This document shows, piece after piece, positions 4,193 to 21,220 of a stretch of 64,000 nt of DNA (positions are counted from its first letter, which is position 1; each line of letters opens with the position of its first letter). The stretch is taken from positions 1-64,000 of IMG/VR virus record IMGVR_UViG_3300032305_002044. The stretch is one strand, 5' to 3'. Source of the stretch: a virus (Duplodnaviria > Caudoviricetes). The notes under the pieces are model-generated. The model searched no databases. It had not been told where the DNA came from and saw only the letters and a list, made by a program, of their open reading frames with translations. The position numbers and the translations under genes are program-made.

Positions 4193-6211
4193 ATGTTGTC
4201 ATTTAAGTTGACTGACGAGTTCATCTCGTCGTATGAAGGTAAAAAAGTTCCCTGGGGTTACCAAGACGCAGGTGGAAATGCGGTCGGGGAAATCACATTT
4301 CTACGAACCTATTCTCGTAAGAAAGAGGATGGCACTAAAGAGACTTGGGTAGAAGTTTGCCGTCGTGTTATTGAGGGTATGTACTCAATCCAGAAAGATC
4401 ACTGCAAGACCAACCGTTTGCCGTGGAATGAGAACAAGGCGCAAGCCTCGGCTAAAGAGGCTTTCGAACGCCTGTTCGAACTTAAGTGGACTCCGCCAGG
4501 CCGTGGGTTATGGGTAATGGGTACTCCTATTGTTACTGTGCAAAAGAATAGCGCGGCTCTACAAAACTGCTCATTTGTATCCACAGAGTCAATGACCAAG
4601 CACAACCCAGCCAAGCCATTTGCGTTCCTAATGGAAGCCTCAATGCTAGGTGTAGGTGTGGGCTTTGATGACAAAGGGGCAGACAAAGAGTTCACCATTT
4701 ACGCACCAACACAAACTATCAGCGAGTATGTAATCCCTGATACCCGTGAGGGTTGGGTGGAATCCACCTCTGCTCTGATTAACTCTTACCTACGCCACGA
4801 CCAGCCAACCCTTAGTTTTGACTATAGTGAAATCCGTAAAGAAGGAGAACCTATCAAGACGTTTGGTGGTACGGCAGCGGGCCCTGATCCGTTGAAGGCG
4901 CTTCACCAGCATATTATCCGAATCTTCAAAGATAGAGAAGGCACATTATTAACTAGAGTGGACATTGCCGATTTGGGTAACCTTATTGGAGTGTGCGTAG
5001 TGTCGGGTAACGTGCGCCGTTCTGCTGAGCTACTAATGGGTCGCTTGGATGATGATGACTTCCTTAATCTAAAAAATAGTGAGCGTTTTCCAGAGCGCAA
5101 TAGCTATGACAAGAAAGCTCCAGGTTGGGGTTGGATGTCCAACAACTCTGTTGGCATCTCTGTTGGGGATGATCTATCAGGAATTATTGACGGTATTGCT
5201 TTGAATGGTGAGCCTGGTGTTATTTGGATGGATGTAACCCGTAAGTACGGTCGCCTCATTGACCCACCAAACAACAAAGACTGGCGGGCAGCTGGATACA
5301 ATCCGTGTGCAGAGCAGAGCCTAGAATCGTTTGAGTGCTGTACTCTAGTCGAGACTTACCTTAACCGCCACGACGATATGGCAGATTACTTGCGAAGTCT
5401 AAAGTTTGCTTACCTGTATGCCAAGACGGTTACGCTTCTACCTACCCATTGGGAGGAAACCAACGCTATTATGCAACGTAATCGCCGTATTGGTACTTCA
5501 ATGTCTGGTATTGCTAACTTTGCTGATAAGAACGGACTACCTGAACTTCGTACTTGGATGGACTCTGGTTACGACACCGTGCTGAAGTACGACAGGATGT
5601 ACTCGGAATGGTTGGGTATTCGTGAGTCAATTAAAACTACTACCGTTAAGCCAAGCGGGACTGTGTCTATTCTAGCTGGTGAAAGCCCAGGTGTGCATTG
5701 GACTCCAGGTGGCAGGCACTTCTTACGAGCTATTCGCTTTGCCAATGATGACCCAATGTTACCTCTTTTTCAGTACGCAGGGTACACGGTTGAACCTGCT
5801 AGTGAGTCTCCAAAGACTACCAGCGTAGTTTTCTTTCCTGTGGAATCAGACGCTTCTCGTAGTGAGAAAGATGTCTCTATCTATGAAAAAATGTCTCTCG
5901 CTTCGGTAGCTCAACGCCATTGGTCAGACAACTCGGTCTCGGTTACTGTATCCTTTAATAAGGACACGGAAACTAAAGATGTTGGTACAGTCCTACACCT
6001 CTTTGACGGGCAACTCAAAACTGTTTCTTTCTTACCAATGGGAAACAAGACTTACCCGCAAATGCCGTACACACAGATAACTGCCGAACAGTATGAAGAT
6101 TACAAAATGAAACTGCTACCCATTGACTTTACAGATGTCTATGCAGGAATGGCAGCCGACGCTATCGGTGAGAAATACTGCAGTACGGATTTCTGCGAAG
6201 TACCGAAGTAA
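4193..6211 (+). CDS. nrdJ: Class II (adenosylcobalamin-dependent) ribonucleotide reductase, RTPR type
   Basis: PPGRGLW, LQNC, GNVRRSA, YNPCAEQ, TVKPSGT and C-terminal CSTDFC redox pair. Confidence 0.95.
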   Translation: MLSFKLTDEFISSYEGKKVPWGYQDAGGNAVGEITFLRTYSRKKEDGTKETWVEVCRRVIEGMYSIQKDHCKTNRLPWNENKAQASAKEAFERLFELKWTPPGRGLWVMGTPIVTVQKNSAALQNCSFVSTESMTKHNPAKPFAFLMEASMLGVGVGFDDKGADKEFTIYAPTQTISEYVIPDTREGWVESTSALINSYLRHDQPTLSFDYSEIRKEGEPIKTFGGTAAGPDPLKALHQHIIRIFKDREGTLLTRVDIADLGNLIGVCVVSGNVRRSAELLMGRLDDDDFLNLKNSERFPERNSYDKKAPGWGWMSNNSVGISVGDDLSGIIDGIALNGEPGVIWMDVTRKYGRLIDPPNNKDWRAAGYNPCAEQSLESFECCTLVETYLNRHDDMADYLRSLKFAYLYAKTVTLLPTHWEETNAIMQRNRRIGTSMSGIANFADKNGLPELRTWMDSGYDTVLKYDRMYSEWLGIRESIKTTTVKPSGTVSILAGESPGVHWTPGGRHFLRAIRFANDDPMLPLFQYAGYTVEPASESPKTTSVVFFPVESDASRSEKDVSIYEKMSLASVAQRHWSDNSVSVTVSFNKDTETKDVGTVLHLFDGQLKTVSFLPMGNKTYPQMPYTQITAEQYEDYKMKLLPIDFTDVYAGMAADAIGEKYCSTDFCEVPK

Positions 6212-8036: not shown

Positions 8037-8171
8037 TTATTTATGACACTCGCACTCGCAGGTGTAGGTCAAGCCTGTCAAGTTTGATGTGAACGATATG
8101 GTGCAATCGGTGTGGGTAGCGTCTACTCCACCACACCAACCAAAGAAGTTACTCTTACCCTTGCTACTCAT
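8037..8171 (-). CDS. Small Cys-rich protein (44 aa; not in ORF track)
   Basis: MSSKGKSNFFGWCGG...TCECECHK*; ATGA overlap. Confidence 0.55.
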   Translation of the reverse strand: MSSKGKSNFFGWCGGVDATHTDCTISFTSNLTGLTYTCECECHK

Positions 8172-8407
8172 ACTGTTACGGACTCTCTCATCAGGGTTGA
8201 TACTCGGTCTAATACATCAGGCACGTTAGAGTCTAAAGCTTCGCACAGGCTAAACATAAGATCGCTTGAGACTTCCTTGACACCTCTTTCTATCTCGGAG
8301 ATGTACCCCAGAGACATAAGAGCTTTGGTAGATAGTTCCCGTAAAGTCCAACCTTGCTTAATCCGCAGGTCTTTAATTACTATTCCTAGCGCGGTTCGGT
8401 ACAACAT
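8168..8407 (-). CDS. XRE-family HTH regulator, ClgR-like
   Basis: QG.TLRE.S..A..SLGY.SEIERG.KE.SS.L...LC.AL matches actinobacterial ClgR. Confidence 0.8.
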   Translation of the reverse strand: MLYRTALGIVIKDLRIKQGWTLRELSTKALMSLGYISEIERGVKEVSSDLMFSLCEALDSNVPDVLDRVSTLMRESVTV

Positions 8408-11778: not shown

Positions 11779-13198
11779 TGTTAAGCACCTCCATAACAGG
11801 CTCGGCAGGAGTGGAGTGAGCCAAACCTAGTTCCTCCTCAATGTTGTAGCGGTAAGTGTCAATAACTAACTTGACACTTGCTTGCTCGCGCATTGGGAAT
11901 AGGTTGAGGTAGGCATAGATACCGTAGTCAATACCAAGACTGTTAATGTTACCCATTAGAGCAACAAGTGAACGAGTCGAGATCGGAGTCTGGATTTCCT
12001 CCTCCTCGAAACGGTCGCGTAATGAATTAGCCATTTCCAAGATTGCCTTACTTTTGATTAGTTTACCCTCAATGTCTGGGTCGTAAGGGAAGTCGAGGTG
12101 GTGTGTGAACCTATCGTTGAAAGCTTGGGATAGTTCCCGAGTACCACGATAGCCAAGATTACCGTCAGCAACAATGAGCAGATCAGGGTGAGCCTTGACA
12201 ACCTCCCCGTCTTTATCCGTTAGTTGGATTTCACGGCGGTAATCTAGTAGAGAATACAATTCCGAGGCGGTACGTTCAGGCATAAAGGTAATCTCACCAA
12301 TAAGCAAGACTCCACCGTTGCGTACCAAGTCTGTTATTGCCCCGTCTTGCCAATGGAAGTGACCGTCTGGGCTTGGGTTGTATCCACCAAATAGTTTCTT
12401 GGTATCCGTGCCAGCAGAGCAAGAGAAGTTGTAGTAACGGTATCCGCGAGCCGAGGCGTAAGCCATAACCGAGGAAGTCTTACCAGAACCAGCGTGACCA
12501 GTAATAAGCACGTTCTCGTCATTACGCATAGCAACGTCAAAGATATCAAAATCAGTAACATCACCTACGACCTTGCGGTTGATGTATTGCTTTGCCCACT
12601 TGATATCAGGCACACTTGCCAATTCCATTACCAAGCTTGGTGTGGTGGTCTGGCGAGAGATAGCAGGTTGGTTAGGTACTGCCACGTTAGAAATTGTCGG
12701 GGTGACTGGATTGCTAACAGGACTATTACCAAAGGCACGGTTAGGCACTAGGGCAGGAAACTCGATTGAGGTGTCCTTGTAACGGGAGTCGGTCAAGTAG
12801 ATAGCAAGACTGCTATCAGCGTTCTCGAAACGTGATACCAAGTCTGATACTAGATCGAAGTGGTTGAGAGTGTAATCGCCACCAAGCTTGGTAAGTTGAT
12901 CGGAGGCGGTGGTGGTCTTGTATCCCAAAGTAGTTACCTTGCCACCTTGAATAGCAAAGTGGTCATTGTCGGTGAGACGGATAGCAACAGGGTTCTTAAT
13001 GACACGGGTATTAGGTAGATCAGATAGAGGCGTTAGTGTCCAAGCCTCGGAACGACCACGCTTACCCGTACTGGTACGGTGGAATAATTGAATTGCGCCA
13101 ATGGTGTAGTTTGGCACGATAATAGTTTGGTCAAGACCTGCTTCGCCATTGTCACCAATGGTCTCGGACAGGGACTCAACGTAGAGTGCGATTGTCAT
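11762..13198 (-). CDS. MoxR/CbbQ/CobS-family AAA+ ATPase
   Basis: Walker A GHAGSGKT, WQDG, N.GY.GT..L..AF.DRF, ISTR; adjacent to vWA gene. Confidence 0.9.
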   Translation of the reverse strand: MTIALYVESLSETIGDNGEAGLDQTIIVPNYTIGAIQLFHRTSTGKRGRSEAWTLTPLSDLPNTRVIKNPVAIRLTDNDHFAIQGGKVTTLGYKTTTASDQLTKLGGDYTLNHFDLVSDLVSRFENADSSLAIYLTDSRYKDTSIEFPALVPNRAFGNSPVSNPVTPTISNVAVPNQPAISRQTTTPSLVMELASVPDIKWAKQYINRKVVGDVTDFDIFDVAMRNDENVLITGHAGSGKTSSVMAYASARGYRYYNFSCSAGTDTKKLFGGYNPSPDGHFHWQDGAITDLVRNGGVLLIGEITFMPERTASELYSLLDYRREIQLTDKDGEVVKAHPDLLIVADGNLGYRGTRELSQAFNDRFTHHLDFPYDPDIEGKLIKSKAILEMANSLRDRFEEEEIQTPISTRSLVALMGNINSLGIDYGIYAYLNLFPMREQASVKLVIDTYRYNIEEELGLAHSTPAEPVMEVLNNGNAN

Positions 13199-13292
13199 AG
13201 TGGATTGCTTCCTTTCGTAAAGCTTGATTTATCCAATACAAGGACAGTACCAGTTATGGGTGAAATTACATAATTATTATCAAAAGATTTAG

Positions 13293-13308
13293 TGTGATAC
13301 TCGTCACA
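13293..13308. promoter_or_regulatory. CRP/GlxR-type box 1
   Basis: TGTGA-TACTCG-TCACA. Confidence 0.75.
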
Positions 13309-13745
13309 TTTATTTAGACTAATCCCATACCACACATAGGGGTCAAAAGTCAATAGTTTTCTCAAACTATTTTTGAGAGCTTTCCACTTGGCGTTAACAA
13401 GCTTTCGGGGCGTATCCCAACACCTAATCTAAGAAATATCGGGGGGTTTCCTGAATTGGCTATCAAATACTAATAGAGATAGAGAGAGAGGATTGGATAC
13501 ACTTCAGGTCACTTGAACCACCTATGAACAACTTTAGTAATAGGACTGGTATCTCTCTCTCTCACTCTCTTATCACATAACAGACTTGCGATACTAGCTA
13601 ATAATCTGGTCACGCAAGCGGTCAGGCTTGTCCCATATCACAGCAGTAGCCGACTGTCAAATCGGCGAGCATAACCAGCTGGGTAAGCTCTCTCTGGCCT
13701 ATACAGCTCTTCTCTCTCTGTCAAGCCGACACGCCGTTTAAGCGG

Positions 13746-13761
13746 TGTGACTTTGGTCACA
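13746..13761. promoter_or_regulatory. CRP/GlxR-type box 2
   Basis: TGTGA-CTTTGG-TCACA. Confidence 0.75.
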
Positions 13762-13858
13762 TTGTTTGTGTCGGCTTTAAAGCCGAATTCAGCTTTAAAG
13801 CTGAATTCATTCAGGGACAGCCTTTAAAGGCTTAGGGTGGGTGGGCCAACACAAACAA
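13762..13858. repeat. Multi-hairpin cassette copy 1
   Basis: TTGTTTGTGTCGGC...GCCAACACAAACAA arms; three internal palindromes centred on TTTAAA. Confidence 0.9.
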
Positions 13859-13866
13859 ATGGGCGC

Positions 13867-13908
13867 AAAAAAGCCCCCGAGACTACCAAGTTTGGCAATT
13901 TCGGGGGC
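13867..13908 (-). terminator. Intrinsic terminator
   Basis: GCCCCCGA/TCGGGGGC stem plus T6 on the minus strand. Confidence 0.75.
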
Positions 13909-13914
13909 GACTTC

Positions 13915-14091
13915 TTACTTAACTATCTTGTCTTTGATCCTGATCTCAACGACTTCCTCTGTGTGGTAGAACTCCTTGACTAGAGCATACGCGGTATCCC
14001 ACAGTTCTAACTCAATTCCGCCGTGCTTGTGCAGTTCTACTAACTCATCGGCTAGTTTTGGTGCTATTTCGAACAGTTTGCTGATTTCCAC
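13915..14091 (-). CDS. Small hypothetical protein (58 aa; not in ORF track)
   Basis: GTG start with SD AAGGAGG; MEISKLFEIAPKLADELV... Confidence 0.65.
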   Translation of the reverse strand: MEISKLFEIAPKLADELVELHKHGGIELELWDTAYALVKEFYHTEEVVEIRIKDKIVK

Positions 14092-14241
14092 AGCGTTTCC
14101 TCCTTAATAGGTTGGTTAGGGGTAGAGAGAGCCTACCGCCTATTGGTTTTGTAAGCCCCCGCACTACTTGTCGCACCTGCTCGTTGACAGGACTGTAACT
14201 TTCGCTTTTGGGAGTTACTCTGTTACCCCTAACCAAGATTG

Positions 14242-14457
14242 TTATTCGTCGTAATCGCCGTCTATTACGTCGTGTACTAGTTCTGTTAGTAGGTTCTCTA
14301 CGAAATTGTCCATACGACCAAGTATTTCGCCCGCAACCCTTTCCCAGACTTCGTCAGTTACGACGTATTCGTGTTCCCGTTGATCCTCAATTAACTCTTG
14401 GAAACTTTGCTTGGTAAGCCGATACTGATTTTGGCATACTACTGCGTTCATTAACAT
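14242..14457 (-). CDS. Small acidic hypothetical protein
   Basis: Coupled ORF; SD GGAG. Confidence 0.65.
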   Translation of the reverse strand: MLMNAVVCQNQYRLTKQSFQELIEDQREHEYVVTDEVWERVAGEILGRMDNFVENLLTELVHDVIDGDYDE

Positions 14458-14612
14458 ACGGTGATCTCCCAACTTCTAGAGCAGTCAGAGTCCTCGGTAA
14501 AGTCCTCTGCTACCCACTCGTCTACGATAGCCATAGCCTCCTCCTCGGAATTGGCTTCTACCTCGTCTGTGTGACTGATAGTAAGTTTGGCACGTACTAT
14601 GTACTTTTCCAT
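14451..14612 (-). CDS. Small acidic protein with VEANSEEEA motif (53 aa; not in ORF track)
   Basis: MEKYIVRAKLTISHTDEVEANSEEEAM...; a motif common in small phage early proteins. Confidence 0.65.
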   Translation of the reverse strand: MEKYIVRAKLTISHTDEVEANSEEEAMAIVDEWVAEDFTEDSDCSRSWEITVC

Positions 14613-14614
14613 AC

Positions 14615-14791
14615 CTACACTCCCTGATTAACGGTAATGCCCCACTCGGACTGTGGTGTTAGGCAATCGAGCAACTGCTCAATTCCCTCTAATAACCCAC
14701 ACGCGGAACAGATACGAGTCTTGTTATCTGTGCGTGACAAGGCTGGTGCGTCAGGCATTATGCCTGTAATACAACGTGGGCAAGTACTCAC
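14615..14791 (-). CDS. Small Zn-finger protein (58 aa; not in ORF track)
   Basis: CPRC...ALSRTDNK..ICSACG; SD GAGAGG. Confidence 0.7.
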   Translation of the reverse strand: MSTCPRCITGIMPDAPALSRTDNKTRICSACGLLEGIEQLLDCLTPQSEWGITVNQGV

Positions 14792-14835
14792 GGTTGATAC
14801 CTCTCTCTAGTGGGAGTCTTTCTCTCACTAACTAA

Positions 14836-14889
14836 ATAGTAAGGGCATTTCTCGCTCACAGATTTAGAGATTATGTGATCTAGGTCACA
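14836..14889 (-). promoter_or_regulatory. Early promoter: CRP-type box 3, 32-bp conserved spacer, -10 TACTAT
   Basis: TGTGA-TCTAGG-TCACA at 14874-14889; spacer shared with four other copies. Confidence 0.75.
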
Positions 14890-14890
14890 G

Positions 14891-14966
14891 TTGTTTGTGT
14901 TGGGCTTTAAAGCCCAATTTTGCAGCTTTAAAGCTGCTGTTTCGGCCTCGACGCCGACACAAACAA
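14891..14966. repeat. Multi-hairpin cassette copy 2
   Basis: Same arms; TTGGGC-TTTAAA-GCCCAA, GCAGC-TTTAAA-GCTGC, CGGC-CTCGAC-GCCG. Confidence 0.9.
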
Positions 14967-15038
14967 AAAAAAACAGAGTGGCTACCAGGAAACAGGACTG
15001 GTAGCCACTCACAGCGCGGAGATTAGGGAAACGCGCTG
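14965..15038 (-). terminator. Tandem hairpins ending in an intrinsic terminator
   Basis: 13-bp stem GAGTGGCTACCAG/CTGGTAGCCACTC plus T-run; upstream CAGCGCG stem. Confidence 0.8.
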
Positions 15039-15040
15039 GC

Positions 15041-15556
15041 TTAGCAGATAGAGAACCCACCTGAGTATTGCAGAAACTCTGCAAACTCCTTTACGTTCTC
15101 TACCGAGAATGGGTATTGAGTGCCGAAGTGAGGCTTGTTACCTGCCCCGTCACACCCATTACACCAACCGTGTGTACGACCATACAAGGCTTGGTGTTCT
15201 AGTGATAGTTCTTTGTCTGACTGGTCAATACCGTGAGGACTATCTGCCCCACGAATACCTGTTGCGTGGCACAACTCGCAGTCTACCAACGGTAGTTCTG
15301 ACTGCTCCTTGCGGTACTCTGCCTCGTAAGCAGCAGTACGACCTGACTCAATTTCATTGAGTAACAGTTTTGCTAACAACTCTGACTCCTTGGCTTGCAA
15401 GCCGTCACCGTCGTTAGAGTGTCCACTAACAGACTTGGTTAGTTCTGGTGCGACATACTCACAGTAGTTCCAAAGTGGTCGCCAGTACCAAACATTATTG
15501 CGAAAGTATTCCCCTGTCTCGTTCACAGGTGCAATACCGATTACATCCATACCCAT
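15041..15556 (-). CDS. Hypothetical protein with a DnaJ-like Zn-finger insert
   Basis: MGMDV..., YFRNNVWYWRPLW, CELCHATG...CNGCDGAG, F.EFL..SGGF.IC. Confidence 0.75.
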   Translation of the reverse strand: MGMDVIGIAPVNETGEYFRNNVWYWRPLWNYCEYVAPELTKSVSGHSNDGDGLQAKESELLAKLLLNEIESGRTAAYEAEYRKEQSELPLVDCELCHATGIRGADSPHGIDQSDKELSLEHQALYGRTHGWCNGCDGAGNKPHFGTQYPFSVENVKEFAEFLQYSGGFSIC

Positions 15557-15585
15557 TTTATTTTCCTCATCTCTAGTTAGGTATT

Positions 15586-15850
15586 TGGGCAGTTTTTGTC
15601 TTACCCAGGACACGCTTACTTACATAGAGTCTAACACTAAGCCTGACTCGTATCCGCAGACGGGGCATTCATACGCTAGTCCCACATCGTGCAGGTAATA
15701 AATCTCGTCTTTCTGATCTCCAGACGAAACCGTATCTGTTTTGGCATCAACGGTTAGTTTAGACTCGCAAGACTCACAAGTTGTTTTGTACATAATCACC
15801 TCTGTTCCTAACCTCTATTTTGGTAGGCAGTTTTTGTCATACCTAGGACA
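15586..15850 (-). repeat. Two copies (15586-15612, 15824-15850) of a ~27-nt intercistronic pseudoknot-like motif
   Basis: Minus strand TGTCCTRGGTAWGACAAAAACTGCCYA with a compensatory change. Confidence 0.7.
15620..15793 (-). CDS. Small Zn-ribbon protein (57 aa; not in ORF track)
   Basis: CESC...CPVCG; SD GAGGTG. Confidence 0.7.
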   Translation of the reverse strand: MYKTTCESCESKLTVDAKTDTVSSGDQKDEIYYLHDVGLAYECPVCGYESGLVLDSM

Positions 15851-15857
15851 CACTTAC

Positions 15858-16064
15858 TTAGACCTTGACTCCGCGAGGCGGGCGCACACTGCCTTGACTG
15901 ACAGTGTAGGTTGCTTCCCAATGATAATTCAAGATGTCGAGCTCATCTGTATTATGTGACTTAGCCGTCAGGCTAACCAGATTTGCTACCTCGTCTAGAG
16001 TTAGGAAGTCATCTCCCCCGTAAGTAATCTCTAGTATCATTGGTATTCTTGCTTTGTGACTCAT
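15858..16064 (-). CDS. Hypothetical protein
   Basis: SD GAGGTG; first gene after its promoter. Confidence 0.7.
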   Translation of the reverse strand: MSHKARIPMILEITYGGDDFLTLDEVANLVSLTAKSHNTDELDILNYHWEATYTVSQGSVRPPRGVKV

Positions 16065-16096
16065 TTAATCACCTCGTCTCCTAATCTCACTCTCTT

Positions 16097-16150
16097 AGTA
16101 TGCCCTAGTATTTCGCTCACGCATTTAGACTTTATGTGAGATAGATCACA
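16097..16150 (-). promoter_or_regulatory. Early promoter: CRP-type box 4, 32-bp spacer, -10 CATACT
   Basis: TGTGA-GATAGA-TCACA at 16135-16150. Confidence 0.75.
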
Positions 16151-16157
16151 TAGCGGA

Positions 16158-16227
16158 TTGTTTGTGTCGGCCTTTAAAGGCCGTTTGGGCACAGCTGGCC
16201 TTGAAGCCAGCCAGCCAACACAAACAA
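16158..16227. repeat. Multi-hairpin cassette copy 3
   Basis: Same arms; CGGCC-TTTAAA-GGCCG, GCTGGC-CTTGAA-GCCAGC. Confidence 0.9.
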
Positions 16228-16231
16228 AAAG

Positions 16232-16263
16232 TTATCCACAACTTATCCACAGGCTGTGGATAG
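16232..16263. promoter_or_regulatory. DnaA-box cluster 1 (three boxes)
   Basis: TTATCCACA at 16232 and 16243; inverted TGTGGATAG at 16255. Confidence 0.8.
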
Positions 16264-16289
16264 TGGGGCAGGTTGCCCTGCCCCACTAT
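16260..16289 (-). terminator. Hairpin after the DUF932 gene
   Basis: ATAGTGGGGCAGG/CCTGCCCCACTAT 13-bp stem. Confidence 0.65.
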
Positions 16290-16292
16290 TGA

Positions 16293-17309
16293 TTACAGAC
16301 CAGCAGTCTCGAGCACTGCCTTGCGAATGCGCGACTTCTCGGCATTCACTTGAGCGTCGAACCCACTAGCACTGGCGAGAATACCAGCGTTGGTACCCTT
16401 GCGCCCTAGTCGGTAGTAATCGACACGTTCGGTTAGCGCATTGAGCGCGCCCCAGCCTGTGCCCTTGATACCCGTCTGGGTAGGCCCGCGCCACAATTCC
16501 CACATAGTGTCGACTTTATCGTCGTACTTGGTGAGAACTGCTTTACCAGCAGTCTGGCGATCTGGCGCAGGGTAAAGACCCTCGATGATTTCGCCGAACT
16601 GCTTATCGGTGATAGCCGATTGGAACAGCGCGTTGGCTTCAACCTCGAACTGGTCAAGATAGGTAAACGAGATACCTAGAGCCTCGCGAGCCTGAGCCAC
16701 GCGATCTTGCGCGGTCGCTGTATGGCGAACCTTGAAAGACTGCTTGGTACCCATGCCCAAAGCCATGTTAAGCGTATTCTGGCAAACCACCCGAACTGGC
16801 GTGGTCATAGCCTGAATTGCGCTAGAACCGTCGTGTGAGGTCGTGACCAGTAAGTAAGACTTGGTAACGTCGCCGATACCAGCCTTGTCAAGCACGATGT
16901 CTTTCCCGAGCTTAAGGCTTCCGAATACTGTGCGCCCGTTGCGAATTGCTCCAGCAGACTCCCAGTAACCTCCACCGTCGAGCAGGTTGTCACCGAATGC
17001 GAATAAATCCTCATTCTGGTAGGTGTGGTAACGATCTCCCACGACAGCCAACACGTCTGGCGTGTTGTTGTTCAACACGTCGTTGCGAACCACCATGAAA
17101 CTAGGTGATTTGGTGGTGTAACCCTCGGGCAGGATTACATCCTCTAGTCGGACATCCCAGCCAGATAGCAATGCGCTATCCAACATTTGCGAGGTCGTGA
17201 CGTGTTCATCTTCATCGAAGATGTGCTGAGCCAGACCATGCCATGCAGGCGCGCCACGCAGTGCAAATGCGACGTCGCCATTGGCGTTCATCTCTAAGTC
17301 GTGTGCCAT
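16293..17309 (-). CDS. DUF932-family phage/plasmid protein
   Basis: MAH.LE, PAWHGL, TSHDGS, TPVRVVCQNTL, RHT, GT.WG.LNALTE..D. Confidence 0.9.
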   Translation of the reverse strand: MAHDLEMNANGDVAFALRGAPAWHGLAQHIFDEDEHVTTSQMLDSALLSGWDVRLEDVILPEGYTTKSPSFMVVRNDVLNNNTPDVLAVVGDRYHTYQNEDLFAFGDNLLDGGGYWESAGAIRNGRTVFGSLKLGKDIVLDKAGIGDVTKSYLLVTTSHDGSSAIQAMTTPVRVVCQNTLNMALGMGTKQSFKVRHTATAQDRVAQAREALGISFTYLDQFEVEANALFQSAITDKQFGEIIEGLYPAPDRQTAGKAVLTKYDDKVDTMWELWRGPTQTGIKGTGWGALNALTERVDYYRLGRKGTNAGILASASGFDAQVNAEKSRIRKAVLETAGL

Positions 17310-17390
17310 AAGGCAATCACTCCCAATCTCGTGAGAACCCCTGAATACGTAAGTATCTCTCACGCCAGCCGTTGCTTCTCAACTGTTCCA

Positions 17391-17444
17391 ATAATAAAGT
17401 AGTTATTCGCTCACGAGTTTAGACTTTATGTGATCTACATCACA
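17391..17444 (-). promoter_or_regulatory. Early promoter: CRP-type box 5, 32-bp spacer, -10 TATTAT
   Basis: TGTGA-TCTACA-TCACA at 17429-17444. Confidence 0.75.
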
Positions 17445-17453
17445 CTGGGCCGA

Positions 17454-17525
17454 TGTTTGTGTCGGGCTTTAAAGCCCGATCAGCTTAAAGCTGCTGCGGC
17501 GGCCTTGAAGCCGCCGACACAAACA
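17454..17525. repeat. Multi-hairpin cassette copy 4
   Basis: Same arms; TCGGGC-TTTAAA-GCCCGA, CAGC-TTAAA-GCTG, CGGCGGC-CTTGAA-GCCGCCG. Confidence 0.9.
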
Positions 17526-17537
17526 ATTTTCAAGCGA

Positions 17538-17565
17538 CAAGCCAGCCCCCGTAGGGGCTGGCTTG
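17538..17565 (-). terminator. Hairpin after the DUF4192-like gene
   Basis: CAAGCCAGCCCC/GGGGCTGGCTTG 12-bp stem. Confidence 0.65.
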
Positions 17566-17582
17566 GCTTATTGCTTGCAGGG

Positions 17583-18101
17583 CTAAACCGCACCCTGCAA
17601 ACACTTGTCAATGGGATTATCAGCAAGTGATGCACCCCAAACGTGGGAAGGTACATTGTGCCTTATGGCTATGTCCAGTAGTTGCCAAAGGCTGTATTCG
17701 CCAAAGTCCTCGGTTTCGAGAACGGCGGTTACAGGTTCTTTGTTGTCCTCTAGCCAGTACGAACCTGCCCAGATAGCCAAGATAGCAAGGCGGGCAGTAC
17801 CGTTTGCCTTAGATGCCCAGTCCGCTAGCGTTTCGCGGTAACGCGTTAGGGTTTCCGTATCCTCGGCCACGTGCAACTCGTACATCTTGCGAAGTACCCC
17901 GTCACGTATTCTAATGTCGGCTAGTGATGATGCAGACTTAACGTCAAACTTACTGACTTTGCCTACTTCTAGATGCTCGATAATTCCGTTGAATCTTTCC
18001 AACCTTTTCTCGGGCGTGGTAATGCGTGGCAGGGGTAATTCTTTCCTGCCGTTGTCATTAGCGACTATGGCTAACGCAACTTCTTTTGTCATTGTGTCCA
18101 T
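17583..18101 (-). CDS. DUF4192-like protein
   Basis: SLADIRIRDGVL...YSLWQLL..AI..NVP..W pattern. Confidence 0.5.
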   Translation of the reverse strand: MDTMTKEVALAIVANDNGRKELPLPRITTPEKRLERFNGIIEHLEVGKVSKFDVKSASSLADIRIRDGVLRKMYELHVAEDTETLTRYRETLADWASKANGTARLAILAIWAGSYWLEDNKEPVTAVLETEDFGEYSLWQLLDIAIRHNVPSHVWGASLADNPIDKCLQGAV

Positions 18102-18146
18102 TAGGGACTCCTGTCTCTTTAGCTGAGCGGTTTCTCAACTGTTCCA

Positions 18147-18200
18147 ATAGTAAGCCCATTATTCGCTCAGCAATTTAGACTTTCTGTGATGTACGTCACA
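18147..18200 (-). promoter_or_regulatory. Early promoter: CRP-type box 6, 32-bp spacer, -10 TACTAT
   Basis: TGTGA-TGTACG-TCACA at 18185-18200. Confidence 0.75.
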
Positions 18201-18205
18201 CCGCG

Positions 18206-18288
18206 TTGTTTGTGTCGGGCCTTGAAGCCCGACCCCCTTCGGGGGAATAGCGGATATGGCTTTAAAGCCATATGCCGCCAACACAAAC
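18206..18288. repeat. Multi-hairpin cassette copy 5
   Basis: Same arms; GTCGGGC-CTTGAA-GCCCGAC, CCCC-TTCG-GGGG, ATATGGC-TTTAAA-GCCATAT. Confidence 0.9.
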
Positions 18289-18331
18289 TTTTCTACAGGT
18301 TGTCCACAGGCTGGGGATAACCTGTGGATAG
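18289..18331. promoter_or_regulatory. DnaA-box cluster 2 (three to four boxes)
   Basis: TTTTCTACA 18289, TTGTCCACA 18300, inverted TGGGGATAA 18312 and TGTGGATAG 18323. Confidence 0.75.
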
Positions 18332-18360
18332 CCACCCCGTAGGGAAGTCGGGGTGGCTAT
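18328..18360 (-). terminator. Hairpin at the end of an operon
   Basis: ATAGCCACCCCG/CGGGGTGGCTAT 12-bp stem. Confidence 0.65.
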
Positions 18361-18368
18361 CAGGTTAG

Positions 18369-18533
18369 TTAGACTCGCGCTAGTTGGTTGGCGTCGCACT
18401 CCTCCTCTGTATGGTTGTCTGCCTCATCGGGTAGGAACATCGCATTGCAATAGCGACACTCAAACTCGACACCAATAGTAGGCGCGCCAGGCACGCGGAC
18501 GTAGTGCATTGTCATTTTGCGGTAGTAAGTCAT
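18369..18533 (-). CDS. Small Zn-finger-like protein (54 aa; not in ORF track)
   Basis: FECRYC...H....C; TAATG coupling. Confidence 0.6.
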   Translation of the reverse strand: MTYYRKMTMHYVRVPGAPTIGVEFECRYCNAMFLPDEADNHTEEECDANQLARV

Positions 18534-18706
18534 TAGAAGTCCCACTCATCCTTTAGCTGATCGTGAATTGGCGTGCCGTTTGCCAATAGACGTTGGCGTT
18601 CTTGCTGAGCGTAATACTCGCGTGAATTAACAATTAACACGCGGTATCCGTATCCACCTATGAAAGACACTAGGCAGAGTAACAGGGTGAACCCGTTTAC
18701 AAACAT
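18533..18706 (-). CDS. Small single-pass membrane protein
   Basis: Start reassigned to MFVNG (SD GGAAGG); hydrophobic N-terminus. Confidence 0.6.
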   Translation of the reverse strand: MFVNGFTLLLCLVSFIGGYGYRVLIVNSREYYAQQERQRLLANGTPIHDQLKDEWDF

Positions 18707-18781
18707 AACTTTCCCTTCCGTTATTGGGGCTAGGTAGCCCACCCGATAGCCAACCTTTCGGTTGGCTATCAGGCTAGTCAC

Positions 18782-19114
18782 CTAGACTACGGTGTAGAGA
18801 GTGCCGTCACACTTGACGGTTAGCACACCCTCTAGACCTACCGAGCGGATGCCCTGAACTTTGTCAGTATCGCCCGCCTCAACCTTAGCCTTGCCGATAG
18901 CAACAGCCTTAGTTGAGAGTAGGACATACAAGCCCTTAGCCTCTGCATCATAGGCAGGAGTACCGCCAGCAAGAAACTTGCCGTATGCGTTCGTGGCAAC
19001 CATAGTCGCCACTTCGCCAGTCTTGCGTTTGGTGTAAGTAACACTAAAGAACTTGTTACCCAACCCTTGCAGGAACGCGCGCAACTCGGCGCGTTCTATT
19101 GTTGCCTCACTCAT
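18782..19114 (-). CDS. Hypothetical SH3/Sm-like fold protein
   Basis: FFSVTYTKRKTGEV..M...IRSV pattern. Confidence 0.65.
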   Translation of the reverse strand: MSEATIERAELRAFLQGLGNKFFSVTYTKRKTGEVATMVATNAYGKFLAGGTPAYDAEAKGLYVLLSTKAVAIGKAKVEAGDTDKVQGIRSVGLEGVLTVKCDGTLYTVV

Positions 19115-19169
19115 AGTTAATTCCCTATCTCTTAGAGTGGTTAGCGTTGAGCGGTTGCTCAACTCTTAA

Positions 19170-19223
19170 AGAATACAGTCGTATTTCGCTCACGAGTTTA
19201 GACTTTGTGTGATGTATCTCACA
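19170..19223 (-). promoter_or_regulatory. Early promoter: CRP-type box 7, 32-bp spacer, -10 TATTCT
   Basis: TGTGA-TGTATC-TCACA at 19208-19223. Confidence 0.75.
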
Positions 19224-19424
19224 CGCTCACAATTTGACAAGCCCCTTCTCTCAGGCTATGCACCCCCTACCCCTTAAGCGACACGCCCGAGCGCGTGGGG
19301 CCAGGTGTCACGCTCTGGTAACGAGCTTATTATCGATACAGTAGCCTGATTTGGAGTTGTTTTTAATAGAATAGGATGGTTTTTATCGGGAAAACGGGTT
19401 TGAGGGGATATAAACAATTTTGAT

Positions 19425-19440
19425 TGTGAGCTGGATCACA
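19425..19440. promoter_or_regulatory. CRP/GlxR-type box 8
   Basis: TGTGA-GCTGGA-TCACA. Confidence 0.7.
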
Positions 19441-19533
19441 TTTTTGGCTTTGTGGGCGCGCCAAAGGTGTCAAAGATGTCATAGTTGTATTTTTAAGACG
19501 GACAGGGTTCGACGGGCTAGCTATCATTATTGG

Positions 19534-19758
19534 GTGTTTACTACATGGTTTTTAGAACAGCAAGATAGAACTGATGAAATTGGCAAGGTATCTCGGGTTT
19601 GCTACAGCGATTACAACGCGGGGTGTGCCATGATGTACCGTGATCCTATCGGCTGGGCAGAACACTTCAAGAGTTCACATAGTAAGCATTATGAAAATGT
19701 AAAAAGTGTCTTGGGGGATGCTTATTTAGAGTACATAGCACAGTCAAGCGTAAAATAA
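19534..19758 (+). CDS. YozE-like small helical protein, probably leaderless
   Basis: -10 TATCAT ends 7 nt before the GTG; FTTWF.EQ.DR.D.IG pattern. Confidence 0.55.
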   Translation: MFTTWFLEQQDRTDEIGKVSRVCYSDYNAGCAMMYRDPIGWAEHFKSSHSKHYENVKSVLGDAYLEYIAQSSVK

Positions 19759-19772
19759 GGGACAATAGGAGA

Positions 19773-20000
19773 ATGACAACTCCATACATCAAAGAAATAG
19801 AGGGCGCTAAGCGTCTTTATGGCGTGCGTCATTTCAAATATCCAGTTGACGTAGCTACTTATGAGGATAAAACTAACGTTCCCCATGAGGCCCGCAGTAC
19901 CTGTGGATACTGCAAGACTTTTAAAGACCCACAACACATTGTAGACCACCATAACAACCGCACTAACGTTATGAGTTTGTTTGATGAGGAGAAAAGCTAA
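19773..20000 (+). CDS. Hypothetical Zn-finger-like protein
   Basis: SD AGGAG; CGYC......H. Confidence 0.65.
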   Translation: MTTPYIKEIEGAKRLYGVRHFKYPVDVATYEDKTNVPHEARSTCGYCKTFKDPQHIVDHHNNRTNVMSLFDEEKS

Positions 20001-20321: not shown

Positions 20322-20807
20322 ATGGCTATTGATTCAGGACCTCAGTTTATAGGCATGCCTATTGGGCGTATCGAATCAGATACAAGCGACCTTCCTGTAG
20401 AACGACACGGTGTCCGCAACAATAATCCTTATTTCTATAACGAAACTGGTAAACAACACAGAATTGCTATTAGGCCTTTAAAGAGTGATCCACAAGATGA
20501 AAGCAAGCCTAACCCTGATTTTATTGCTGCAATGAACTGGGAACCAAAAGACAGCACCTTTATGCAAAAACAGCGCCCAGATGATTCTTGGCCTACTAAA
20601 GCAGGGGAAATTAACGACATCTGGACCAGGGATGACCACAGACGTAAAGGTCTAGCTACTTTCATGTACGGCTATGCAAAGAAAATGTCAGAGTCAGACC
20701 CTACAGTTGCACCACCAGTACATAGCACCCACCTATCCGACGCAGGTGAAAAATGGGCAAAGAGCACTGGTGACCCAGTACCTAAAAGAAAGTACAAGAA
20801 CTACTAA
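20322..20807 (+). CDS. GNAT-family acetyltransferase
   Basis: I..IWT..DHRRKGLAT.M (acetyl-CoA motif A); HS..LS..G..WA. Confidence 0.75.
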   Translation: MAIDSGPQFIGMPIGRIESDTSDLPVERHGVRNNNPYFYNETGKQHRIAIRPLKSDPQDESKPNPDFIAAMNWEPKDSTFMQKQRPDDSWPTKAGEINDIWTRDDHRRKGLATFMYGYAKKMSESDPTVAPPVHSTHLSDAGEKWAKSTGDPVPKRKYKNY

Positions 20808-21220
20808 TGGCAATTGATAAAGGACAGCAATTTAGTTATTCTGACATTGAAAACGCGCACCCAAATATGGTTGATGAAGGCCTTGAAGACGCTGTAAGAG
20901 CTTTAGCTAATGGTAAAGAAGGTAATTCTTTTGGGGAACATTCCGACCCTCCAGAAAATTACGAACTCCGCAATGTACCTATTTCAAAAATTTCACAATA
21001 TATAAAATACGATGATTCAGACCCTCGTATGAGACGGGCTGCTATGGGGTACAAGAATGAAGACCAAGTTCCACCAACTGTTTTAGTAAACCAAGCTGGT
21101 ATGCATGAAATTGCTGATGGGCACCATCGTATTGCAGCAGCCACACATGTAGGGCTTACCCATGTACCAGCGTATGTTGCAGATAGTTTTGAAGAACGCC
21201 CTCATCCAGGATTTGAGTAA
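20807..21220 (+). CDS. ParB/Srx N-terminal-domain protein
   Basis: PP.VL...EIADGHHRIAAA..G...VPAYV. Confidence 0.8.
   Translation: MAIDKGQQFSYSDIENAHPNMVDEGLEDAVRALANGKEGNSFGEHSDPPENYELRNVPISKISQYIKYDDSDPRMRRAAMGYKNEDQVPPTVLVNQAGMHEIADGHHRIAAATHVGLTHVPAYVADSFEERPHPGFE

What the first reader, a model, noticed from the sequence alone, without database searches (positions are those of the whole stretch)
13293..19440. Eight perfect CRP/GlxR boxes in ~6 kb: a cAMP-responsive early regulon or a CRP sink
Seen: TGTGA-N6-TCACA with zero mismatches and eight different spacers at 13293, 13746, 14874, 16135, 17429, 18185, 19208 and 19425, all outside likely genes. A 10-bp pattern is expected about 0.06 times per 64 kb. 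Knowledge: this is the consensus for CRP and its actinobacterial orthologs (Crp/GlxR). Inference: early gene expression is gated by host cAMP/carbon status, or the phage titrates the host global regulator.
Basis: partly seen in the sequence, partly recalled or inferred. Interest (0 to 1): 0.8.

Follow-up and report, generated by a model that had tools for sequence, protein, structure and literature searches.

The report
CRP-type boxes on phage early promoters
A 93-kb lake phage of actinobacteria places eight perfect copies of the docking sequence of cAMP-receptor-type regulators just upstream of the promoters of its leftward block of small genes, so a host global regulator probably helps switch these genes on, although no binding has been tested.

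Summary
The window has eight perfect TGTGA-N6-TCACA palindromes at the stated coordinates (0.07 expected). They are the only ones in the 93,416-bp phage genome, and no one-mismatch copy exists.

All eight lie between genes of the leftward arm. Five sit exactly 32 nt upstream of a TAnnnT-type -10 hexamer with no -35. Two more sit one helical turn further from a -10. One, at 19425, is unassigned.

In related phage contigs the same box lies whole helical turns upstream of extended -10 promoters (28 non-redundant contexts, period about 10.75 bp, Rayleigh p about 2e-7). Box use is patchy on the family tree. It spans phages of 36-50% GC that share only five core genes with this one. No CRP-family gene and no box-specific phage gene was found.

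The best reading is activator sites for a host Crp/GlxR-type regulator. The "sink" idea has no support, and cAMP gating is unproven. The host and its Crp were not identified, and no transcription start is mapped.

The scan has reported the same phenomenon before on other lake actinophage DNA. I found no paper on it.

The parts
19208..19223 (-). CRP-type box 1 of the repeated promoter module. It serves the unit 19115->18369 (three small genes).
19170..19175 (-). Predicted -10 hexamer TATTCT, nt 33-38 after the box.
   Evidence: checked
18185..18200 (-). CRP-type box of the module. It serves gene 18101->17583 (172 aa, no family match).
18147..18152 (-). Predicted -10 hexamer TACTAT, nt 33-38 after the box.
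17429..17444 (-). CRP-type box of the module. It serves the DUF932 gene (about 17310->16293).
17391..17396 (-). Predicted -10 hexamer TATTAT, nt 33-38 after the box.
16135..16150 (-). CRP-type box of the module. It serves the unit 16064->15041 (three genes).
16097..16102 (-). Predicted -10 hexamer CATACT, nt 33-38 after the box.
14874..14889 (-). CRP-type box of the module. It serves the unit 14791->13915 (four small genes).
14836..14841 (-). Predicted -10 hexamer TACTAT, nt 33-38 after the box.
13746..13761 (-). CRP-type box next to a cassette. It is followed by TTGACA (13719-13724) and TATAGG (13698-13703). It would drive the non-coding GA-rich stretch of about 13300-13700. The box centre is about 62.5-63.5 nt from the inferred start.
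   Evidence: hexamers read by hand
13293..13308 (-). CRP-type box upstream of the MoxR-AAA / vWA operon (13198->about 6376). The extended -10 TGGTACTGT has its hexamer at 13244-13249. The box centre is at -63.5 by my convention.
19425..19440 (.). CRP-type box in the divergent region between the leftward and rightward arms. No in-phase -10 could be assigned on either strand. It is conserved letter for letter in the nearest relative.
14847..14873 (-). Example of the 27-nt lineage-specific element between box and -10 (nAAAGTCTAAA..TGAGCGAAWA type). The same element follows the boxes at 16135, 17429, 18185 and 19208.
   Evidence: (family D1)
13762..18288 (-). Span holding the five stem-closed hairpin cassettes (GTTTGTGT...ACACAAAC arms). 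Each lies 0-12 nt upstream (minus strand) of a box. This is context, not part of the box itself.
   Evidence: (families D2, D5)

Best explanation
The eight palindromes are high-affinity docking sites for a dimeric CRP/FNR-family regulator that the host supplies (a Crp/GlxR orthologue of an actinobacterium). They belong to the promoters of the phage's leftward arm (about 6.4-19.2 kb).

Each transcription unit is built, on the minus strand, in this order: terminator hairpin, stem-closed cassette, box, a 27-nt lineage-specific element, a TAnnnT -10 with no -35, a 5' leader of roughly 25-75 nt, then the genes.

The regulator bound 32 nt upstream of the -10 (box centre about -52.5), or one turn further at about -63, sits on the polymerase's face of the helix. 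From there it helps recruit host RNA polymerase to promoters that lack a -35. The start of this gene block therefore depends on the level or activity of a host global regulator.

What is shown: the sites, their restriction to this arm, the fixed spacing here, the helical phasing in relatives, and the lack of any phage gene that tracks the box.

What is inferred: the identity of the binder, activation rather than repression, the -10 assignments and start sites, and 'early' timing.
For: 1. Sequence. There are 8 of 8 perfect matches to the CAP/GlxR consensus, 0 one-mismatch sites, and all sites lie in 6.1 kb of a 93.4-kb genome.

2. Selection on the arms only. At the 8 orthologous sites of the nearest relative L005, the arms differ at 1 of 80 positions and the spacers at 10 of 48. 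One search covers 7 pairs (0 of 70 against 9 of 42, Fisher p 8e-5). I counted the eighth pair by hand from the same output.

3. Spacer preferences over 62 unique boxes. T or G follows TGTGA at 0.80, and the third spacer position is A or T at 0.83 with G at 0.04.

4. Geometry here. In 5 of 5 module promoters a [T/C]AnnnT hexamer lies exactly at nt 33-38 after the box. It is kept in 3 of 4 L005 modules. The fourth has a 10-nt insertion and a TACTCT hexamer at nt 43-48 (hexamer read by hand). The distance from cassette to box varies from 0 to 12 nt, so the box is coupled to the promoter, not to the cassette.

5. Geometry in relatives. In 44 of 66 unique box contexts a TGnTAnnnT lies within 140 nt downstream, against 5 of 66 on the other side. 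After 8-mer de-duplication, the 28 contexts put the box centre at:
- 62.5-65.5 (12 contexts)
- 73.5-76.5 (7)
- 84.5-86.5 (3)
- 54.5, 96.5, 107.5 and 128.5 (1 each)
- off phase at 59.5 and 69.5 (2)
Rayleigh R is 0.74 at period 10.75, p about 2e-7. The -52.5 and -63.5 of this phage fall on the same series.

6. M. tuberculosis CRP sites cluster at -60 to -40 from mapped start sites (PMC4117774, section 15).

7. No phage binder was found.
- No HTH_Crp_2 or cNMP_binding match in this genome or in 5 box-bearing relatives.
- Of 263 ORFs of this phage with any hit in the 12 other genomes compared, none has a homologue in at least 3 of 4 box-bearing genomes and in at most 3 of 8 box-less ones.
- Even at E 0.05, only RNR, DnaB, primase, RecA and DUF932 are shared with the three distant box-bearing genomes, and each is also in 5-8 of the 8 box-less ones.
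- The one clear phage HTH (ClgR-like, 8168-8407) occurs only here and in L005.

8. Box-bearing genomes range from 35.7 to 50.4% GC. The box label needs at least 5 changes on the DUF932 tree (quick tree). The same site was therefore kept or gained in lineages with different hosts.

9. A WhiB gene (PF02467, E 7.6e-16) places the host among actinobacteria, whose Crp/GlxR proteins use this consensus.
Against: - The host is unknown, and its possession of a Crp was not shown. RNR relatives gave no host. Only 242 of 401 sampled genomes of the phylum matched an Actinotalea Crp at E<=1e-20, and several 1.3-1.8-Mb genomes did not. Of 5 small genomes, only 2 had an HTH_Crp_2 match over the cut-off.
- No transcription start is mapped and no RNA run holds this DNA. 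The -10 hexamers are pattern assignments, and the standard sigma-70 scan finds nothing above chance here (8 found, 7.6 expected).
- A centre near -52.5 is neither the E. coli class II nor the class I position.
- 20 of 30 related phage records have no box at all, including the clade nearest to this phage.
- The cultured Streptomyces relatives LuckySocke and BRock have one box each.
- Natural CAP sites usually deviate from the perfect palindrome (PMC10187061). An all-perfect set could point to a more exacting binder.
- Small DNA-binding proteins can diverge beyond BLASTP, and many ORFs here have no family match.
Confidence: 0.58

Rival explanations
1. The boxes are operators of an unrecognised phage-encoded dimeric protein (for example a small HTH, or a virion-borne protein). 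This protein happens to read the same 5+5 half-sites and switches the leftward arm on or off.
For: All sites are perfect with no near-misses, as in phage operator sets. Many ORFs of the arm have no family match. A ClgR-like XRE HTH is encoded at 8168-8407, downstream in the same leftward arm. Box presence is all-or-none among relatives, as expected if a phage gene came and went.
Against: No ORF of this phage is shared preferentially with other box-bearing genomes. The ClgR-like HTH is found only here and in L005. The half-sites are identical across phages that share only 5 core genes and span 36-50% GC, whereas phage repressor and operator pairs usually diverge. The boxes lie upstream of, not over, the core promoter.
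Confidence: 0.15
2. A host regulator binds, but as a repressor or silencer. This may be host Crp or another host protein with this specificity. The host would use the sites to damp phage early transcription, or the phage would use them to delay it. The binding does not activate.
For: GlxR both activates and represses (PMC10187061). M. tuberculosis CRP sites also cluster at +1 to +20 (PMC4117774). An alternative -10 reading (nAAAnT immediately after the box) would put the box between -35 and -10 (my reading).
Against: The hexamer right after the box is not TAnnnT in 2 of 5 copies, and no -35 precedes it. The nt 33-38 hexamer is conserved between this phage and L005 while the intervening 27 nt are not. 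Helical phasing at 63, 74 and 85 in relatives is typical of activation from upstream.
Confidence: 0.12
3. CRP sink: the sites exist to titrate the host regulator away from host promoters as the phage genome replicates.
For: Perfect, hence high-affinity, sites. Copy number would rise with replication (inference).
Against: A sink does not need a fixed distance to a -10, helical phasing or intergenic placement. Eight sites per genome is few compared with the 191 ChIP peaks reported for M. tuberculosis CRP (PMC4117774).
Confidence: 0.03
4. The boxes are merely part of a recombination junction (plug-in cassette borders) that is homogenised by gene conversion, with no binding function of their own.
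For: Each box adjoins a repeated cassette and a repeated 27-nt element that evolves in concert within a genome: mean identity is 20.9 of 27 positions among this phage's copies and 20.3 of 27 among L005's, against 12.9 of 27 between the two genomes.
Against: Homogenisation would also copy the spacers, yet all 8 spacers differ while the arms are perfect. Arms change at 1 of 80 positions and spacers at 10 of 48 against L005 (plus a hand count). Two boxes (13293, 19425) have no cassette. Distant phages without these cassettes have the same box.
Confidence: 0.05

Closest known systems
Actinobacterial Crp/GlxR operators (C. glutamicum GlxR; M. tuberculosis CRP Rv3676)
   Same: The 16-bp consensus TGTGA-N6-TCACA is the same (PMC7999487; PMC4117774). 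Sites sit in promoter regions, with M. tuberculosis sites clustering at -60 to -40, which brackets the about -52.5 inferred here. The host phylum fits, given the phage WhiB.
   Different: The sites are on a phage rather than a chromosome. Every site is a perfect palindrome, whereas chromosomal sites usually deviate (PMC10187061). Binding, the host and its Crp are untested.
Class I CRP (CAP)-dependent promoters of E. coli (activator upstream of -35, contacting alpha-CTD)
   Same: The site lies upstream of the core promoter. [quoted passage not shown]
   Different: Five promoters here have the site one turn closer than the nearest cluster seen in relatives, and they have no -35 hexamer. The series is offset by about 2 bp from the E. 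coli positions as I recall them. A conserved 27-nt lineage-specific element fills the gap.
Class II CRP-dependent promoters (site overlapping -35)
   Same: There is no -35 hexamer, so an activator site stands in for promoter recognition upstream of a -10.
   Different: [quoted passage not shown] Here it is 33 bp, so this is not class II.
Phased CRP-type boxes reported by this scan on other lake actinophage contigs (e1-5992552, e1-5921108, e1-5677052, e1-5990086, e1-5939361, e1-5977175)
   Same: Same palindrome, same kind of small-gene block, and the same whole-turn phasing upstream of promoters. My own count on 80 related loci gives the same picture.
   Different: Those are AI notes on other genomes. 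This phage belongs to a clade that otherwise lacks the box. It uses a different, -35-less promoter with its own 27-nt element and a shorter fixed spacing.

Membership tests
CRP/GlxR binding site | 16-bp inverted repeat TGTGA-N6-TCACA with a 6-bp spacer | tested here: met
   8 of 8 perfect. Consensus read in PMC7999487 and PMC10187061.
CRP/GlxR binding site | Constraint on the half-sites but not on the spacer | tested here: met
   Arms differ at 1 of 80 positions and spacers at 10 of 48 against the 8 orthologous sites of L005 (plus a hand count of the eighth). All 8 spacers differ.
CRP/GlxR binding site | Placement in promoter regions at activation-competent distances | tested here: inconclusive
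   The distance to a predicted -10 is fixed at 32 nt in 5 of 5 modules. Two more boxes lie about one turn further. Relatives are phased. No start site is mapped (one search found no RNA holder).
CRP/GlxR binding site | A cognate CRP-family protein is present in the cell | tested here: inconclusive
None is encoded by the phage or by 5 relatives. The host is not identified. 242 of 401 sampled genomes of the phylum have a match.
CRP/GlxR binding site | Binding by the protein, and its dependence on cAMP | not testable with these tools
   Needs EMSA, DAP-seq or ChIP.
Class II CRP-dependent promoter | [quoted passage not shown] | tested here: not met
   33 bp in 5 of 5 modules. Criterion from PMC10187061.
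Class I CRP-dependent promoter | Site upstream of a -35 element, on one helical face | tested here: inconclusive
   Phasing is met in relatives. In this phage no -35 is recognisable, and five sites lie closer than the nearest cluster seen in relatives.
Phage repressor/operator set (CI/Cro or stoperator type) | A cognate phage-encoded repressor that co-occurs with the operator | tested here: not met
   No ORF tracks the box across 13 genomes. The ClgR-like HTH is present only here and in L005.
Phage repressor/operator set (CI/Cro or stoperator type) | Operator overlaps the core promoter or start site | tested here: not met
   The box ends 32 nt before the predicted -10. In relatives it lies 50 nt or more upstream. 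This depends on predicted -10s.

The most novel reading that the evidence does not exclude
The early promoters may need two keys: a host Crp at the box, plus a second, lineage-specific factor on the 27-nt element that fills the space where a -35 should be.

This element is nearly constant among the five promoters of this phage. In its nearest relative (94% identical DUF932) it has been replaced, at the same length and in all promoters at once, by a different 27-mer, while the box, the -10 and the leaders stayed.

That pattern would fit an adaptor that remodels sigma at -35-less promoters, in the manner proposed for PafBC at its '-26 element' (recalled, and a lead from notes e1-5998303 and e1-5999238). 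Such an adaptor would co-evolve with its site.
Probability: 0.2. Interest if true: 0.75.

Novelty: new variant of a known kind. Interest (0 to 1): 0.52.

Why it matters
If a host Crp-type regulator is needed to start this gene block, infection by an abundant group of lake phages is tied to the physiological state of their hosts. These hosts are thought to be slow-growing, streamlined actinobacteria. This would be a concrete, testable link between nutrient status and viral lysis in freshwater.

The same site recurs in phage lineages that share almost no genes, which argues that a host global regulator is a common entry point for phage transcription. The perfect sites also offer ready-made, strong Crp operators for synthetic promoters in actinobacteria.

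Within this scan the phenomenon has already been seen repeatedly. This case adds three things: the polyphyly, the test showing no shared phage gene, and a distinct -35-less promoter design.

Tried and rejected
- Extended module in other viruses. The box plus nAAAGTCTAAA had 0 matches in viral contigs, so the module is private to this lineage.
- Phage-encoded sigma factor. I noticed a resemblance of the module to a flagellar-type (sigma-28 class) promoter that I recalled from memory. No sigma-70-family match was found in the genome (TIGR02937 and PF04545). The nearest relative keeps the -10 at nt 33-38 but not the look-alike part. I dropped the idea.
- Class II reading (a -10 at nt 22-27 after the box). 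Rejected because that stretch is not conserved with L005, while nt 33-38 is.
- Standard sigma-70 and terminator scan of 13000-19800. Nothing above chance.
- Host identification.
  - RNR relatives in genome contigs gave Saccharopolyspora, Actinotalea and unrelated MAGs, with no host signal.
  - The HemA-domain protein had 0 matches in 401 sampled genomes (an empty result shows nothing).
  - The Crp search across the phylum returned no taxonomy.
  - Five small genomes gave mixed results.
  - The host and its Crp therefore remain open.
- RNA evidence. No RNA holder was listed.
- Cultured relatives. Streptomyces phages LuckySocke and BRock have 1 box each and Bacillus phage BCD7 has 0, so there is no ready cultured model.
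- Local gene co-occurrence within +-10 kb of DUF932. The families most associated with boxes (for example a 249-aa Cys-rich protein in 15 of 20 box-bearing loci) are absent from this phage.
- PafBC-type promoter pattern (lead from earlier notes). There are 4 matches in this genome, none in the box region, against 7 in the box-bearing relative G403. It is not the promoter type used here.
- Literature. Searches found no paper on CRP-type boxes in actinophage promoters or on Crp in Nanopelagicales. This covers the held library only. Supplements were not opened (Table S3 of PMC4117774 would give exact CRP-to-TSS spacings).
- Tree. The careful tree did not finish in 288 s, so only the quick tree is reported.
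- Unpublished genomes. The tally '242 of 401' includes ten genomes flagged unpublished (G083, G227, G089, G392, G121, G149, G049, G002, G344, G319).

Full report
**1. Observation**

The pattern TGTGA-N6-TCACA occurs eight times in the window, at exactly the coordinates given. All eight spacers differ. Shuffles give 0.07 expected (largest 1, 0 of 100 with eight).

The window is the first 64 kb of a 93,416-bp virus record that CheckV rates 98% complete. The whole record has the same eight sites and no others, and the reversed control pattern has none. A mismatch scan of the whole genome gives 8 sites with no mismatch, none with one mismatch and 22 with two. The set is therefore sharply bounded: a site is either perfect or absent. 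All eight lie within 6.1 kb.

**2. What the phage is**

- PHROG matches identify terminase, portal, major head protein, tail sheath, baseplate and fibres in the rightward arm.
- The right third holds DnaB, primase, DNA polymerase A, RecA, an SNF2 helicase, SpoVS and a WhiB-family protein (PF02467, E 7.6e-16).
- The major head protein is 70-73% identical to those of Streptomyces phages LuckySocke, Alone3 and BRock.
- G+C is about 44%.
- The DNA is held in lake and freshwater metagenome runs. One run holds all sampled words and may be the source.
- WhiB points to an actinobacterial host. The host itself was not identified (see section 8).

**3. Anatomy**

The genes between 6.4 and 19.2 kb run on the minus strand. 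They include:
- a MoxR-type AAA ATPase and a vWA protein
- DUF932 (E 5e-55)
- about a dozen small proteins without family matches

Read on the minus strand, five boxes (14874, 16135, 17429, 18185, 19208) lie in one repeated module (family D1). The module runs in this order:
- a stem-closed hairpin cassette with constant arms
- 0-12 variable nucleotides
- the box
- a 27-nt element that is nearly constant (mean 20.9 of 27 identical among the five)
- a hexamer TACTAT, CATACT, TATTAT, TACTAT or TATTCT at exactly nt 33-38 after the box (checked)

The start codons follow 71 to 119 nt after the box (my count). No -35 hexamer is recognisable, and the standard sigma-70 scan finds nothing above chance (8 found, 7.6 expected).

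The other three boxes:
- 13293 lies upstream of the MoxR operon. An extended -10 (TGGTACTGT) puts its centre at -63.5 by my convention, in which the hexamer occupies -12 to -7.
- 13746 is followed by TTGACA and TATAGG. This puts its centre near -62.5 to -63.5. It would drive a 440-nt GA-rich stretch without an ORF (hexamers read by hand).
- 19425 lies in the divergent region between the two arms. I could not assign it an in-phase -10 on either strand.

**4. Which hexamer is the -10**

Three readings were possible: a hexamer right after the box, one at nt 22-27 (class II geometry), or one at nt 33-38.

The nearest relative decides. L005 (DUF932 94% identical) has perfect boxes at 7 of the 8 orthologous places, and a one-mismatch box at the eighth. 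Its modules keep the box, the nt 33-38 hexamer (TATTCT, CACAAT, TACTAT) and the leaders. The 27 nt in between have been replaced in all its promoters by a different sequence of the same length. Mean identity there is 20.3 of 27 within L005 but 12.9 of 27 between the two phages.

In a fourth L005 module a 10-nt insertion moves the box one helical turn away, and a TACTCT hexamer follows at nt 43-48 (read by hand).

I therefore take nt 33-38 as the -10. That puts the box centre near -52.5. [quoted passage not shown]

**5. Selection acts on the arms**

Across the eight orthologous sites of this phage and L005, the arms differ at 1 of 80 positions and the spacers at 10 of 48. One search gives 0 of 70 against 9 of 42 for the seven perfect pairs (Fisher p 8e-5). 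I added the eighth pair by hand so that the count is not limited to pairs chosen for being perfect.

Over 62 unique boxes from this phage and 80 related loci:
- the base after TGTGA is T or G in 0.80
- the third spacer base is A or T in 0.83 and G in 0.04

**6. Relatives**

The DUF932 protein retrieved 159 related stretches from IMG/VR, of which 80 loci were kept.
- 24 of the 80 loci hold at least one box, with 94 boxes in 1.22 Mb.
- In 30 whole records, 9 have 3-9 boxes each, 1 has one box and 20 have none. The control pattern is 0 in all 30.
- Wherever present, the boxes cluster within about 12 kb.
- In 44 of 66 unique contexts an extended -10 (TGnTAnnnT) follows within 140 nt on the DUF932 strand, against 5 of 66 on the other side.

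After merging contexts that share 8-mers, 28 remain. The box centre then lies at:
- 62.5-65.5 in 12 contexts
- 73.5-76.5 in 7
- 84.5-86.5 in 3
- 54.5, 96.5, 107.5 and 128.5 once each
- off this series (59.5, 69.5) in 2

The Rayleigh statistic peaks at a period of 10.75 bp (R 0.74, p about 2e-7). Some remaining contexts are still homologous between phages, so the effective number is somewhat below 28. The series is nevertheless visible within single phages (L037, L081).

The -52.5 and -63.5 of this phage fall on the same series. Such face-of-helix spacing is what is described for activators bound upstream of promoters (class I; PMC10187061). In M. tuberculosis, CRP sites cluster at -60 to -40 from mapped start sites (PMC4117774 section 15).

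**7. Host factor or phage factor**

- No HTH_Crp_2 or cNMP-binding domain is encoded in this genome or in five box-bearing relatives. No sigma-70-family protein is encoded either.
- I fetched 12 related genomes, 4 with boxes and 8 without, and compared all ORFs of at least 45 aa.
- Of 263 ORFs of this phage with any hit, none has a homologue in at least 3 of the 4 box-bearing genomes and in at most 3 of the 8 box-less ones.
- With looser limits (E 0.05, 40% cover), only five ORFs are shared with the three distant box-bearing genomes: RNR, DnaB, primase, RecA and DUF932. Each is also present in 5-8 of the 8 box-less genomes.
- The ClgR-like HTH occurs only here and in L005. Its sequence is almost the same in both, differing at 6 of 79 residues. 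It therefore cannot explain the differing 27-mers either.
- Box-bearing genomes range from 35.7 to 50.4% G+C.
- On a quick DUF932 tree of 61 rows, the label 'two or more boxes' needs at least 5 changes. This phage and L005 sit inside a clade of 25 box-less rows (some loci are partial, so a few changes may be artefacts of coverage).

Phages that share almost nothing else, and probably infect different hosts, thus use identical half-sites. This is what is expected for a conserved host protein, and it is unlike phage repressor and operator pairs. The caveat is that small DNA-binding proteins can escape BLASTP.

**8. What remains open**

- The host was not identified. RNR relatives in genomes gave no host signal, and a HemA-domain search found nothing.
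- An Actinotalea Crp with an R-E-T-V-N-K helix has matches at E<=1e-20 in 242 of 401 sampled genomes of the phylum.
- Of five small genomes, two had an HTH_Crp_2 match over the cut-off.
I did not test this.
- No RNA run holds the DNA, so starts, timing and the direction of regulation are all inferred.
- cAMP dependence is not implied. The review passages say GlxR binding in a cAMP-deficient strain is reduced but not abolished.

**9. Comparison and novelty**

The sites meet the sequence definition of Crp/GlxR operators. The promoters are not class II. They resemble class I in phasing but lack a -35, and five of them have the site one turn closer than the nearest cluster seen in relatives.

My searches of the held library found no paper describing CRP-type boxes on actinophage promoters or Crp in Nanopelagicales. 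The scan itself has reported phased CRP-type boxes on other lake actinophage contigs and on other phages several times. As a phenomenon this is therefore a repeat within the scan.

This genome adds three things:
- the demonstration that box use is polyphyletic and tracks no phage gene
- a distinct promoter design with a fixed 32-nt gap
- a 27-nt element that was replaced in concert in the sister phage

**10. Verdict**

The most likely mechanism (about 0.58) is activation of the leftward, presumably early, promoters by a host Crp/GlxR-type dimer.

Rivals, with my probabilities:
- an unrecognised phage protein, about 0.15
- repression by a host factor, about 0.12
- a recombination junction, about 0.05
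- titration of the regulator, about 0.03

Noticed in passing
window 13300-13740 (minus strand): A stretch of about 440 nt without a credible ORF, rich in GAGAGAG runs. It has its own TTGACA/TATAGG promoter just after the 13746 box. The promoter part recurs in L005 and in part in L022 and other relatives (cggcgtgtcggcTTGAC). It is a candidate non-coding RNA.
   Followed up: partly
window 14847-14873 and the equivalent 27 nt after the boxes at 16135, 17429, 18185, 19208; L005 after 3431, 5495, 6762: The 27 nt between box and -10 are nearly constant within each phage (20.9 and 20.3 of 27) but differ between the two sister phages (12.9 of 27), while box, -10 and leaders are kept. This means concerted replacement of a promoter-proximal element, possibly the site of a second, lineage-specific factor.
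   Followed up: partly
window 16232-16251 and about 18290-18330; relatives G415, G416, G419, G420: Perfect DnaA-box 9-mers lie just upstream of two cassettes here. Several related genomes hold 7-10 perfect copies (less than 1 expected, by my estimate). In box-less relatives L018-L022, a TGTGGATAAC motif follows the cassette where this phage has the CRP-type box. Different lineages may have wired the same promoters to different host regulators.
   Followed up: partly
It was found only in this phage and in L005 among 13 genomes. Its target is unknown.
   Followed up: partly
L037, L041, L049, L055, L057, L081 (distant relatives), between box and promoter: Two further recurrent motifs appear: AATGTCCG(A/T)TTTG between box and promoter, and GGCGTGTC near DnaA-like boxes. 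The second also occurs in this window at 13728-13735 and 19280-19287.
   Followed up: no
G403 (L041 record) 11.8-24 kb and other distant relatives: Many promoters downstream of boxes in distant relatives have a TGTCAG-type element 8 nt before the -10 (7 matches in G403). Earlier notes call this the PafBC-type layout. This phage has 4 matches, none in the box region.
   Followed up: partly
L005 2380-2450 and 4183-4260: Two promoters of the sister phage carry a 10-nt insertion right after the box, which keeps the helical face. One of them has a one-mismatch box (TGTGG arm) upstream of DUF932.
   Followed up: partly
genome 84008-84331 and 86624-86902 (L098:3008-3331 and 5624-5902), beyond the window: A WhiB-family protein (E 7.6e-16) and a SpoVS-family protein (E 5.8e-30) are encoded in the right arm.
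   Followed up: no
window 20807-21220 (+): A 137-aa protein with weak ParB-like N-terminal domain matches (PHROG, E 5e-6), just right of the divergent region.
   Followed up: no
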